A DNA stretch of 64,000 bases from IMG/VR virus record IMGVR_UViG_3300015214_000004, positions 10,839 through 74,838 of that record. One strand, given 5' to 3'. The DNA is from a virus. Lineage: Duplodnaviria; Caudoviricetes. Positions within the stretch are counted from its first letter, which is position 1. Each line of letters opens with the position of its first letter. Positions 1,884 through 2,223 of this stretch are shown one piece after another. The notes beneath the pieces are model-generated. The model did not search any database. It was given only the letters and a program-made list of their open reading frames with translations, and was not told the origin of the DNA. The position numbers and the translations under genes were made by a program.

Positions 1884-1994
1884 AGGTATGAAACAGCAAT
1901 ATAAACGACCTGTCACGTCCGAGGCACTGGTTCGAATCCGGTACTGCTAAATGCGGTTGGTGTAGTGGTTAGCATGCGTAAAATACAATCCTGT
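1884..1994 (+). ncRNA. Scaffold RNA unit 2, circularly permuted tRNA-Asp-like module
   Basis: GAC-CTGTCAC-GTC anticodon arm, T arm ACTGG-TTCGAAT-CCGGT, closed acceptor hairpin ACTGC-TAAAT-GCGGT, then D arm GTGT-AGTGGTTA-GCAT; outer scaffold stem imperfect. Confidence 0.75.
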
Positions 1995-1997
1995 AAA

Positions 1998-2103
1998 AGA
2001 ACCGCAACAGCAAATAATCATTGTGTCATTGGTTCGATTCCAATTTCTTACTTTGTCGGAATACCTCAGGTGGTAGAGGAAATGAATAAAAATGCGGTTC
2101 TGT
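1998..2103 (+). ncRNA. Scaffold RNA unit 3, circularly permuted tRNA-like module opened in the anticodon loop
   Basis: Perfect 9 bp stem AGAACCGCA/TGCGGTTCT; TCATT/AATGA anticodon stem, GTGTC variable loop, T arm ATTGG-TTCGATT-CCAAT, acceptor hairpin, D arm CCTC-AGGTGGTA-GAGG. Confidence 0.8.
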
Positions 2104-2106
2104 ATA

Positions 2107-2223
2107 AGATCAGTTCAGCAAATTAAAAAAGATTCCGCGATTTGGAATTATAGTTTAATAGGTAGAATGCTAAATTAATAATTTAGAGGTTTCGGTTCGA
2201 ATCCGTCTTAAAAGCTGATCTGT
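2107..2223 (+). ncRNA. Scaffold RNA unit 4, tRNA-like module with the acceptor 3' strand placed upstream
   Basis: Stem AGATCAGTT/AGCTGATCT; GATTCC-loop-GGAATT hairpin, D arm GTTT/GAAT, anticodon arm CTAAA-TTAATAA-TTTAG, T loop CGG-TTCGAAT-CCG. Confidence 0.75.

What the first reader, a model, noticed from the sequence alone, without database searches (positions are those of the whole stretch)
1884..2223. Three tRNA bodies circularly permuted at three different break points
Seen: Unit 2 runs anticodon arm (GAC-CTGTCAC-GTC, an Asp GUC loop) > variable > T arm > closed acceptor hairpin > D arm, so it is opened between the D and anticodon arms. Unit 3 runs TCATT > GTGTC > T arm > acceptor hairpin > D arm > AATGA, so it is opened inside the anticodon loop (GTGTC and TTCGATT resemble tRNA-Phe). 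Unit 4 runs acceptor 3' strand GATTCC > loop > GGAATT > D arm > anticodon arm > T arm, so it is opened between the T arm and the acceptor. None has a free CCA end. Inference: independent captures of different tRNAs onto one scaffold, each keeping the D/T elbow but exiting at a different helix. Permuted tRNA genes are known in red algae and archaea, and YrlA uses a permuted-like topology, but three topologies side by side in a phage is unusual.
Basis: partly seen in the sequence, partly recalled or inferred. Interest (0 to 1): 0.86.

Follow-up and report, generated by a model that had tools for sequence, protein, structure and literature searches.

The report
Three tRNA mimics on Y-RNA-like handles
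Three tRNA-shaped RNA domains with sealed acceptor ends sit in a row of five small RNAs that share one conserved "handle" and lie just upstream of a Ro60-like protein gene, so they are most likely tRNA look-alike partner RNAs of an undescribed Ro60/Y-RNA-type particle, not scrambled tRNA genes.

Summary
Units 2, 3 and 4 (1884-2221) each contain a tRNA body whose acceptor stem is closed by a loop. Each is joined to the rest of the transcript at a different place: inside the 5' strand of the anticodon stem (U2, Asp GUC), in place of the anticodon loop (U3) and between T stem and acceptor (U4, AAU). Rejoined in silico, all three are called tRNAs by ARAGORN, against 0 of 1000 shuffles each.

They are not permuted tRNA genes in the algal or archaeal sense. 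All five units share one frame: AG-stem, ACAGCAA, cargo, complementary strand ending CU, then GU. They appear to be transcribed together with a 556-aa DUF2828/DUF7788 protein whose model has the Ro60 fold (Z 16.9).

In 80 related viral loci the same frame occurs 187 times on the gene strand and 9 times on the other. All three graft topologies recur in distant phages with compensatory changes, so they are old module types, not local captures.

U3 has the YrlA design. The handle motif differs from the known Y-RNA motif, and no Rfam family covers it at its gathering score. Binding and function are inferred.

This scan has noted the same system in at least 100 other genomes.

The parts
1686..1726 (+). 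Terminator-like hairpin (AAAAACACCC / GGGTGTTTTT plus a T run) that ends the upstream RecT-like gene
   Evidence: Perfect 10-nt inverted repeat I16; sequence read. It separates the array from the gene at 184-1674.
1753..1785 (+). Bacteroidota-type promoter-like motifs: TTTG (1753-1756), 21 nt, TATCTTTG (1778-1785)
   Evidence: Read. The match to the Bacteroides -33/-7 consensus is from my own knowledge, and no tool scores it. The sigma-70 scan finds nothing on this strand here.
1818..1883 (+). Unit 1, a short handle RNA: AGAATCCG / CGGATTCT stem, AACAGCAA motif, a 5-bp hairpin with a 7-nt loop as cargo, tail GTAAA
   Evidence: Matches Rfam Dicty_Class_I_RNA end to end at 24.4 bits, below its gathering score of 41.5.
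1884..1997 (+). Unit 2: bulged handle (AGGTAT / ATA-CAAT-CCT) and CAGCAA at 1894-1899. The cargo at 1907-1978 is a tRNA-Asp(GUC)-like body in the order AC arm > variable > T arm > closed acceptor hairpin > D arm. The handle enters inside the 5' strand of the anticodon stem (28|29).
   Evidence: Weak partial Rfam tRNA match at 19.2 bits. Homologous design in L185/L200, L201, L204 and L211.
1998..2106 (+). Unit 3: handle AGAACCGC / GCGGTTCT and CAGCAA at 2008-2013. The cargo at 2018-2085 is a tRNA body without an anticodon loop (YrlA topology). Its acceptor has 7 positions with one C.U mismatch and is closed by TTT.
   Evidence: Rfam YrlA model 1-114 at 32.7 bits, E 3.8e-5 in the local search. 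ARAGORN calls a tRNA only when a flank is used as the loop.
2107..2227 (+). Unit 4: handle AGATCAG / CTGATCT and CAGCAA at 2116-2121. The cargo at 2131-2205 runs acceptor 3' strand > 7-nt loop > acceptor 5' strand > D arm > anticodon arm (loop TTAATAA, anticodon AAU) > T arm. The handle leaves between the T stem and the acceptor.
   Evidence: Rfam tRNA 39.8 bits over model 5-66. The rejoined form is called tRNA-Ile(AAU). The T stem has 3 bp plus U.U and U.C mismatches, shared with L153:5244.
2228..2286 (+). Unit 5, a short handle RNA: AGGGGGCG / TGTCCCCT stem, CAGCAA at 2238-2243, hairpin cargo, tail GTTTT
2315..3985 (+). 556-aa DUF2828/DUF7788 protein with the Ro60 (HEAT-repeat ring plus vWA) fold and an intact MIDAS motif DTSGS
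   Evidence: Pfam DUF7788 at 1.7e-7 and DUF2828 at 8e-4 (below its cut-off); PHROG 850 'RNA-binding protein' at 3e-33. AlphaFold model with pLDDT 82. The top 11 Foldseek matches are all Ro60/TROVE. VIA-align Z 14.6-16.9 over 373-429 residues for the ten Ro60 entries, against 10.4 or less for chains that match only the vWA part. D344, S346 and S348 are invariant in A1.
3989..4018 (+). Intrinsic-terminator-like hairpin plus T run, 4 nt after the stop codon of the Ro60-like gene
   Evidence: 9-bp stem followed by a T-rich tail; 2 such sites found against 0.2 expected in shuffles.

Best explanation
The three 'permuted tRNAs' are the cargo domains of three out of five tandem handle RNAs. These RNAs are probably made from one promoter together with a Ro60-like (DUF2828) protein.

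Each unit is closed by its own 6-9 bp stem that starts with AG and ends with CU. The stem is followed on the 5' side by (N)ACAGCAA and A-rich joints. I infer that this frame is the docking site for the Ro60-like ring protein, as the conserved helix and 5' motif are in Y RNAs.

The cargo is a tRNA part. It is an anticodon-type hairpin in the short units and a whole L-shaped body with a sealed acceptor in U2-U4. The handle is grafted where the anticodon loop would be (U3, as in YrlA), into the anticodon stem (U2) or at the T-stem/acceptor junction (U4). As a result U3 shows only the elbow and acceptor, while U2 and U4 also show a complete anticodon loop.

Shown here: the sequence anatomy, the tRNA-likeness, covariation of the handle stems, the Ro60 fold of the protein, and the strand-specific co-occurrence of handle arrays with this gene family.

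Inferred: that the protein binds the handle; whether the array is cut into single RNAs; and the role. My best guess for the role is that the particle presents tRNA look-alikes as tethers or decoys for host tRNA-binding enzymes, such as modification enzymes, RNase P or anticodon nucleases. I give about 0.8 to the identity (handle-RNA tRNA mimics, not decoding tRNAs) and about 0.3 to the tether/decoy role.
For: All five units share the frame and have unit-specific complementary stems.

Among 195 modules delimited only by adjacent CAGCAA motifs in related loci, 73% pair over at least 7 bp with their own 3' strand. With another module's strand the figure is 5%. On alignment A2, 97% of cells are paired. 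There are 132 double-change cells against 38 in shuffles, and 0 of 500 shuffles reach the observed value.

In 80 viral loci with a DUF2828 gene there are 187 modules on the gene strand and 9 on the other. 48 loci have at least 2 on the gene strand and none has at least 2 on the other.

The protein has the Ro60 fold.

U3 matches the YrlA model end to end, and long modules elsewhere match its tRNA-like core. With circular rejoining, 33 of 62 long modules give tRNA calls, against 0 of 186 shuffled and 0 of 62 reverse-complement payloads.

All three topologies recur: 21 of YrlA type, 6 with the anticodon arm kept in T>acceptor>D order, and 4 in D>AC>T order. The split anticodon stem shows compensatory changes: CG|GAC with GTCCG here, CCG|GC with GCCGG in L185, and CG|AGC with GCTCG in L211.

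Of 98 short cargos, 47 have an anticodon-type hairpin (7-nt loop, U33, R37). Shuffles give a mean of 7 and a maximum of 13.

The phage genome is complete at 74.8 kb. It has no canonical tRNA gene and no RtcB or PF09414 RNA ligase.

Precedent: bacterial and phage Y RNAs lie next to Ro60 genes and mimic tRNA (PMC4201824). Thermus phage phiLo Ro60 binds two adjacent Y-like RNAs (PMC12135203).
Against: There are no expression or binding data of any kind. The link between protein and RNA rests on co-occurrence and analogy.

The known Ro60-binding motif GNCGAAN0-1G (PMC4201824) is absent. The protein matches no Pfam TROVE model.

U3 scores 32.7 bits on YrlA, far below the gathering score of 69.

Only 48 of 80 loci have at least 2 modules within 3 kb of the gene, so the link is not obligatory at that distance.

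Most module sets were collected with a detector that requires a stem. Only one search is free of that bias.

The tether/decoy role has no direct support.
Confidence: 0.75

Rival explanations
1. These are true permuted tRNA genes. The handle is a processing signal: the precursor is cut there and the ends are ligated. The acceptor loop is then opened by RNase P and 3' trimming, CCA is added, and working tRNAs (Asp, Ile and a third) result, as in Cyanidioschyzon merolae.
For: The rejoined U2 and U4 are called tRNAs with sensible anticodon loops. The phage has no other tRNA gene. In relatives L201, L203, L207 and L216 the acceptor loop of an Asp-type module reads G-CCA right after a 7-bp acceptor stem. 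M. smegmatis YrlA is cut by RNase P and receives CCA in vivo (PMC4201824).
Against: U3 and 20 other modules have no anticodon loop at all. U2 has a 5-bp acceptor and U4 a 6-bp one, and neither has a discriminator or CCA. The anticodon AAU is unusual for a decoding bacterial tRNA (my own knowledge). Neither RtcB nor a PF09414 RNA ligase is found in the phage. The identical handle encloses about 100 short cargos that cannot be tRNAs. The flanks form a plain helix plus an A-rich internal loop, not a bulge-helix-bulge.
Confidence: 0.05
2. The handle is a maturation, stability or packaging signal read by a host RNase or some other factor. The Ro60-like gene is only a frequent neighbour. The tRNA-like cargos act by themselves, for instance as sponges for tRNA-binding proteins.
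For: Thirty-two of the 80 DUF2828 loci lack two modules within 3 kb. In several relatives the arrays merge into ordinary tRNA and tmRNA clusters. The linkers between units are only 4-6 nt and are conserved (GAUA or GUAAA), as expected for a cleavage site.
Against: Strand-specific clustering next to this one gene family in phages whose proteins are 45-72% identical to the window's. There is a close structural precedent: Ro60 with adjacent Y RNAs closed by a terminal helix with a 5' motif.
Confidence: 0.12
3. These are decayed, rearranged tRNA gene remnants with no function.
For: ARAGORN finds no tRNA in the native sequence. The acceptor stems carry mismatches.
Against: All tertiary-contact nucleotides are intact and the Levitt pair covaries. 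The split anticodon stem is completed exactly across the handle. The same designs are kept with compensatory changes in distant phages. Shuffles never give tRNA calls.
Confidence: 0.03

Closest known systems
YrlA-type Y RNAs bound by Rsr/Ro60 in bacteria and mycobacteriophages (Rfam RF02553; Chen et al. 2014, PMC4201824)
   Same: A small RNA is encoded next to a Ro60-fold gene, with its ends held in a helix that carries a short 5' motif. The tRNA-like domain runs T arm > closed acceptor hairpin > D arm and has no anticodon loop, exactly as in U3. Several such RNAs can lie side by side and be cut from one precursor.
   Different: The motif is ACAGCAA, not GNCGAAN0-1G. The protein is DUF2828/DUF7788 with no TROVE Pfam match. 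The CM score is 32.7 bits against a gathering score of 69. The arrays have five or more units with interchangeable cargo. Two further graft positions keep a complete anticodon arm.
Deinococcus radiodurans Yrn1 (PMC4201824)
   Same: Chen et al. note that in Yrn1 the T and D arms have the opposite order relative to the RNA ends, and that the closed stem-loop between them takes the place of the anticodon arm. This is a D>AC>T layout, as in U4.
   Different: In Yrn1 the D arm is doubtful, the 'anticodon loop' has 6 nt and there is no variable arm. U4 has a canonical D arm, a 7-nt loop and a variable region, and its acceptor is closed as a separate hairpin upstream.
Circularly permuted tRNA genes of the red alga Cyanidioschyzon merolae and some archaea (from my own knowledge; not checked in a paper here)
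   Same: The 3' half of a tRNA lies upstream of the 5' half, with the acceptor strands joined by a short intervening sequence (U2, U3).
   Different: Those precursors end in a bulge-helix-bulge motif, are circularised by the splicing machinery and mature into decoding tRNAs. Here the ends form the conserved handle, one body has no anticodon loop, there is no CCA or discriminator context, and the same flanks carry non-tRNA cargo.
Thermus phage phiLo Ro60 with Yrl1 and Yrl2 (PMC12135203; PDB 9kop, 9l5y)
   Same: A phage-encoded Ro60-fold protein with Y-like RNA genes directly upstream. 9kop is the best Foldseek match of the window's protein.
   Different: The phiLo RNAs were found through the CGAA motif, and that paper does not mention tRNA-like features. 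It has two RNAs, not an array of handle units.
Class I RNAs of dictyostelid amoebae (Rfam RF01414; Kjellin et al. 2021, PMC7919456)
   Same: The frame is the same as in the short units: about 60 nt, a start at (A)AG, a covarying terminal stem, an 11-nt motif ending ACAGCAA right after the 5' strand, and an end at CUGU. Eleven short modules in nine related loci match this model end to end at 28-37 bits, and U1 at 24.4 bits.
   Different: All scores are below the gathering score of 41.5. Class I RNAs are single eukaryotic genes with their own promoter, and no Ro60-like partner is known for them. This comparison concerns U1 and U5, not the three tRNA bodies.

Membership tests
Canonical tRNA gene (Rfam RF00005) | Contiguous cloverleaf in the order acceptor, D, anticodon, T, acceptor | tested here: not met
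   ARAGORN finds none in the native sequence. The Rfam match for U4 covers only model positions 5-66, and the match for U2 skips the D arm.
Canonical tRNA gene (Rfam RF00005) | Free acceptor end with a discriminator, and CCA either encoded or addable | tested here: not met
   The acceptor strands are joined by loops TAAAT (U2), TTT (U3) and GCGATTT (U4), with no CCA.
Permuted tRNA genes (algal/archaeal type) | A complete tRNA, including the anticodon loop, once the ends are joined | tested here: inconclusive
   Met for U2 and U4. Not met for U3, where a loop has to be borrowed from the flank and the anticodon is arbitrary.
Permuted tRNA genes (algal/archaeal type) | Precursor ends form a bulge-helix-bulge motif for the splicing endonuclease | tested here: not met
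   The ends form a 6-9 bp helix followed by ACAGCAA and an A-rich internal loop. This is the same in units with no tRNA cargo.
YrlA (Rfam RF02553) | tRNA-like module in the order T arm > closed acceptor > D arm, with the ends in a helix where the anticodon loop would be | tested here: met
   U3 aligns to model positions 1-114. Not met for U2 and U4.
YrlA (Rfam RF02553) | Score at or above the family's gathering threshold (69 bits) | tested here: not met
   32.7 bits for U3; 26-36 bits for modules in relatives.
YrlA (Rfam RF02553) | GNCGAAN0-1G motif near the 5' end (PMC4201824) | tested here: not met
   All five units carry (N)ACAGCAA instead.
ACAGCAA-handle RNAs next to DUF2828 genes (unnamed; defined and from the scan's earlier notes) | A closing stem starting AG and ending CU, with (N)ACAGCAA 0-3 nt after the 5' strand and G(U/A) after the 3' strand | tested here: met
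   Met in U1, U3, U4 and U5 by the detector. U2 meets it by eye with a bulged stem. Consensus.
ACAGCAA-handle RNAs next to DUF2828 genes (unnamed; defined and from the scan's earlier notes) | Same strand as a DUF2828/DUF7788 gene and within about 3 kb of it | tested here: met
   The array ends 29 nt before the ATG at 2315.
Ro60 / TROVE proteins | HEAT-repeat ring plus C-terminal vWA domain with a MIDAS motif | tested here: met
   Predicted model only. Z 16.9, 420 residues aligned to Xenopus Ro60 (1yvr), and all ten top entries are Ro60. DTSGS is invariant.
Ro60 / TROVE proteins | Sequence match to Pfam TROVE or to solved Ro60 chains | tested here: not met
   Only DUF7788 and DUF2828 match in Pfam. 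A profile search of PDB sequences finds no Ro60 chain.
Dictyostelid Class I RNA (Rfam RF01414) | Score at or above the gathering threshold (41.5 bits) | tested here: not met
   U1 scores 24.4 bits. The best relative scores 37.3 bits.

The most novel reading that the evidence does not exclude
The Ro60-like protein and its handle RNAs form a phage display platform for tRNA parts. The three graft positions are design variants that expose different faces of a tRNA: the elbow alone, or the elbow plus a complete Asp or Ile-type anticodon loop. Their purpose would be to bait, titrate or redirect host tRNA-recognising enzymes, including anticodon nucleases used in anti-phage defence. This would be a new RNA-based counter-defence principle. 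It might share ancestry with the unexplained Class I RNAs of Dictyostelium.
Probability: 0.25. Interest if true: 0.88.

Novelty: new variant of a known kind. Interest (0 to 1): 0.66.

Why it matters
Y RNAs that mimic tRNA are known from one design (YrlA), with a doubtful second in Yrn1, and their role is still unclear. Here a divergent Ro60-fold family carries its own handle motif and whole arrays of interchangeable cargo. A single phage holds three different ways of grafting a tRNA body onto that handle, and two of them keep a full anticodon loop.

This shows that the tRNA shape, and in some units the anticodon, is what selection keeps. It also gives natural variants for testing which tRNA-binding host factor is the target.

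The operon is 2.3 kb and appears self-contained: promoter-like motifs, five RNAs, one protein and a terminator. It could be expressed as it stands.

I found no Rfam family that covers the handle at its gathering score and no paper that describes it. The paper library is limited, and this scan has met the same system many times.

Tried and rejected
- blastn of the array against 50,697 phage records: no match.
- Exact pattern CTGTAWAAG-N-CAGCAA in viral contigs: 116 or more hits, essentially all chance. Only L047 had a DUF2828-like gene, and its match lies in coding sequence.
- Contigs of the closest protein relatives (P0002, P0004): gene maps were returned but no DNA.
- Sequencing runs: no RNA holder is listed. 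Two landfill-metagenome DNA runs hold the stretch, and one may be its source. I did not lay reads.
- Profile search of PDB sequences found nothing relevant; the relation to Ro60 shows only at fold level.
- The ESM Atlas returned only the same DUF2828/DUF7788 family.
- A search for longer, fused forms of the protein found none (weak evidence).
- Idea rejected: that the U4 T stem is completed by the two A's before GATTCC. The homologous module L153:5244 keeps the same U.U and U.C mismatches, has a compensatory C:G to U:A change, and has no AA upstream.
- Idea rejected: that U3 is a tRNA-Phe. The Phe(AAA) call comes only from using the flank as the loop.
- I could not test whether Dictyostelium encodes a DUF2828 protein, or whether DDB_G0281243, an unknown protein pulled down with a Class I RNA (bioRxiv 10.1101/2020.04.05.026054), is one. 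Avesson 2011 is not in the library, and the protein searches are crowded by phage sequences.
- Infernal or tRNAscan-SE scoring of the rejoined sequences was not possible, because the Rfam tool reads only held sources. ARAGORN was used instead.
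Full report
**1. What is there**

The stretch 1790-2310 is intergenic. It lies between a RecT-like gene (184-1674, PHROG 561) and a 556-aa ORF (2315-3985).

Reading the + strand shows five tandem units with one frame. 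Each has a 5' strand that starts with AG, then 0-3 nt, then CAGCAA (at 1828, 1894, 2008, 2116 and 2238). A-rich joints around a variable cargo follow, then a complementary 3' strand ending in CT, then G(T/A) and a 4-6 nt linker to the next AG.

The stems differ from unit to unit:
- U1: AGAATCCG / CGGATTCT
- U2: AGGTAT / ATA-CAAT-CCT (bulged)
- U3: AGAACCGC / GCGGTTCT
- U4: AGATCAG / CTGATCT
- U5: AGGGGGCG / TGTCCCCT

RNAfold recovers the closing stem in U1, U3, U4 and U5, and my detector finds the same four.

A terminator-like hairpin (1686-1726) precedes the array. Bacteroidota-type promoter motifs sit at 1753-1785; that consensus comes from my own knowledge. I saw no terminator-like hairpin between the array and the ORF. 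A terminator-like hairpin follows the ORF at 3989-4010. The layout suggests one operon, but this is inferred.

**2. The three tRNA bodies**

*U2.* The cargo (1907-1978) runs anticodon arm, variable region, T arm, acceptor hairpin, D arm. The exit dinucleotide CG (1977-1978) and the entry GAC (1907-1909) together pair with GTCCG. The handle therefore enters the fold inside the 5' strand of the anticodon stem, at tRNA positions 28|29. The loop CTGTCAC is a tRNA-Asp type loop.

*U3.* The cargo (2018-2085) has the two anticodon-stem strands TCATT and AATGA at its ends and no loop. The handle takes the place of the loop.

*U4.* The cargo (2131-2205) has the acceptor closed as a hairpin upstream. 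The D arm, a complete anticodon arm (loop TTAATAA) and the T arm follow, and the handle leaves after the T stem.

None of the three has a CCA. The acceptor stems have 5 bp (U2), 6 of 7 positions paired (U3) and 6 bp (U4).

U8, A14, G18G19 and the T-loop TTCRA are present in all three. Position 15 covaries with position 48: G:C in U2 and U3, A:U in U4.

**3. Is it more than chance?**

- Rejoined in canonical order, the three are called tRNA-Asp(GUC), a tRNA whose anticodon depends on which flank is borrowed, and tRNA-Ile(AAU). The native order gives no call at default settings. None of 1000 dinucleotide shuffles of each gives a call.
- Native U4 reaches 39.8 bits on Rfam tRNA over model positions 5-66 (gathering score 29).
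- Native U3 matches the YrlA model end to end at 32.7 bits (E 3.8e-5 in the local search, gathering score 69).
- U2 gets only 19.2 bits, for its anticodon and T arms.

**4. The neighbour**

The ORF matches Pfam DUF7788 and, weakly, DUF2828. It also matches PHROG 850 'RNA-binding protein'. It has more than 2300 relatives, named 'DUF2828 family protein' where a name is given.

An AlphaFold model built from 28 relatives has pLDDT 82 and pTM 0.83. In Foldseek its 11 best PDB matches are all Ro60/TROVE chains. The best is the Ro60 of Thermus phage phiLo, 9kop, at E 9e-8.

With VIA-align the ten best entries are all Ro60. They score Z 14.6-16.9 with 373-429 residues aligned across both the helical ring and the vWA domain. 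Chains that match only the vWA part stop at Z 10.4. The MIDAS motif DTSGS is invariant.

No sequence-level match to TROVE or to solved Ro60 chains was found. This is a predicted fold, not a structure.

**5. The frame travels with this gene**

A profile-guided scan of viral contigs gave 80 loci with a relative of the protein, at 45-72% identity.

- My detector finds 187 modules on the gene strand and 9 on the opposite strand in 571 kb. 48 loci have two or more on the gene strand, and none has two on the other. The arrays lie directly upstream, as here (L118, L123, L136), or downstream (most loci).
- The detector demands a stem, so I also delimited 195 modules by adjacent CAGCAA motifs alone. 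Of these, 73% form a helix of at least 7 bp with their own 3' strand, against 5% with the strand of another module.
- On an alignment of 80 short modules, 97% of cells in the stem are paired. All six main pairs show changes on both sides, with 132 such cells against 38 in shuffles. None of 500 shuffles reaches the observed covariation, and slid registers fall to 35-52% paired.
- At gathering thresholds no Rfam family covers the handle frame. The only modules above threshold are two whose tRNA-like cargo reaches RF00005, L137:6028-6088 and L153:5286-5359.

**6. The three topologies are family traits**

I trimmed and circularly rejoined the cargos of 62 long modules. 33 gave ARAGORN tRNA calls, against 0 of 186 shuffled and 0 of 62 reverse-complement cargos. 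They sort as follows:

| Type | Count | Examples |
|---|---|---|
| YrlA/U3 type: anticodon arbitrary, T > acceptor > D | 21 | WIN U3, L118:2701, L121:5011 |
| Anticodon arm kept, T > acceptor > D (as U2) | 6 | WIN U2, L185:1974, L001:4873 |
| D > AC > T order (as U4) | 4 | WIN U4, L137:5989 Ile-GAU, L153:5244 Leu-AAG, L173:4528 Thr-CGU |
| Unclear | 2 | |

A pattern search for 'handle, CTGTCAC, T loop' found further Asp-type modules: L200 (the same contig as L185), L201/L203/L207/L216, L204/L205 and L211.

In these the anticodon stem is again completed across the handle, with compensatory sequences. L185 has CCG|GC with GCCGG, and L211 has CG|AGC with GCTCG. By eye L001:4873 has CG|CGA with TCGCG and a Leu-CAG loop. 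The nick is always at 28|29 or 29|30.

The graft positions therefore follow rules and are old. I see no support for independent captures within this phage.

Several arrays combine two topologies (L137, L173, L185). Among the 81 arrays sampled, only this window has all three.

**7. The short units**

Of 98 short cargos, 70 have a hairpin with at least 4 bp and a 7-nt loop (shuffles: mean 32, maximum 44). 47 also have U at loop position 2 and a purine at position 6 (shuffles: mean 7, maximum 13). The commonest loops are CUUUUAA, CUUGUAA, CUCGUAA, CUCUUAA and CUGCAAA.

The family as a whole thus appears to display tRNA parts. This fits the tRNA-mimic reading of U2-U4.

**8. Why these are not tRNA genes**

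The phage record is complete: 74.8 kb with terminal repeats, from a landfill metagenome. It has no canonical tRNA, and neither RtcB nor a PF09414 RNA ligase was found.

U3 and most relatives lack an anticodon loop. The acceptor stems are short or mismatched. The same handle flanks cargo that cannot be a tRNA. The flanks do not form a bulge-helix-bulge.

I keep a small probability (0.05) for maturation into tRNAs, for two reasons. In the L201 group the acceptor loop reads G-CCA after a 7-bp stem. And M. smegmatis YrlA is cut by RNase P and receives CCA in vivo, while the two halves stay with Rsr (PMC4201824).

**9. Comparison with the literature**

Chen et al. 2014 (PMC4201824) describe Y RNAs next to Ro60 genes in more than 250 bacteria and phages. 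These have a 5' motif GNCGAAN0-1G and a tRNA-like module. The authors note that YrlA and Yrn1 differ in the order of the T and D arms and in which stem is closed. Two layouts were therefore known, in different species.

The phiLo paper (PMC12135203) shows a phage Ro60 binding two upstream Y-like RNAs and host PNPase.

What differs here is the handle motif, the protein family, the arrays with interchangeable cargo, and the two grafts that keep a full anticodon arm.

A search for 'DUF2828' returned five papers, none about RNA. Searches on phage tRNA mimics and decoys found no description of this system. The library is limited.

**10. Earlier notes of this scan**

I had stated my reading before I saw these notes. 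The scan's index shows the same protein-plus-handle system noted in at least 100 other genomes. It includes tRNA bodies 'opened at different arms' in another phage and the resemblance to Dictyostelium Class I RNAs. These are unchecked AI notes, and I count them as agreement, not as evidence.

I reproduced the Class I resemblance myself. U1 and eleven modules in nine loci match RF01414 end to end at 24-37 bits, always below the gathering score of 41.5. The published description of Class I RNAs fits the short units: about 60 nt, a start at AAG, a covarying stem, an 11-nt motif ending ACAGCAA, and an end at CUGU (PMC7919456). Whether this reflects common descent is open.

**11. Verdict**

The three bodies are best read as tRNA mimics grafted in three ways onto a Y-RNA-like handle, as partners of a Ro60-fold protein. 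This is a new variant of a known kind.

Binding, processing and function remain inferred.

Noticed in passing
window 15581-16000 (+): Circularly permuted (two-piece) tmRNA. Rfam tmRNA_permuted scores 66.4 bits against a gathering score of 47. ARAGORN gives the tag peptide GKTIEMFNQQLRAVG*. It is a second permuted tRNA-related RNA in a phage that has no canonical tRNA gene.
   Followed up: no
window 1818-1883 and 2228-2286; related loci L118-L196: The short units carry anticodon-type hairpins. In 98 short modules from relatives, 47 have a 7-nt loop with U33 and R37, against 7 expected. The commonest loops are CUUUUAA, CUUGUAA, CUCGUAA and CUCUUAA, which are Lys- and Thr-type with U36-A37-A38.
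   Followed up: partly
window 1819-1879; L131:7027-7084, L151:5202-5259, L118:2639-2697 and others: The short handle RNAs match Rfam Dicty_Class_I_RNA end to end at 24-37 bits, below the gathering score of 41.5. They share its published frame: AAG start, covarying stem, a motif ending ACAGCAA, CUGU end. I could not test whether dictyostelids have a DUF2828-type protein.
   Followed up: partly
L201:4533-4577 (-), identical in L203, L207 and L216: An Asp(GUC)-type handle module has a 7-bp acceptor stem followed by G-CCA inside the closing loop. It is a possible RNase P and 3'-trimming substrate, unlike U2 of the window.
   Followed up: no
L120:4923, L124:5521, L128:5454, L153:5508, L179:5496, L196:4746: A recurrent long module type has a T arm followed by a conserved hairpin with the loop GGCACUUGGUGUGGAAUAUC in place of a normal acceptor and D arm. 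It is a further conserved cargo class of unknown meaning.
   Followed up: no
L124:5922-6281; L128 and L153, several sites: In relatives, ordinary tRNA genes lie on both sides of the DUF2828 gene, some directly after the handle array. In L124 a full tmRNA (72 bits) follows it.
   Followed up: no
L123:1514-1599 (+): A Hatchet self-cleaving ribozyme (Rfam 68.6 bits, gathering score 51) lies about 1 kb upstream of a handle array in a related phage.
   Followed up: no
window 184-1674 and 4450-5025: The neighbours of the operon are a RecT-like annealing protein (PHROG 561) and a Dam-type DNA methyltransferase (Pfam PF05869, PHROG 111). No RNA-repair genes are nearby.
   Followed up: no
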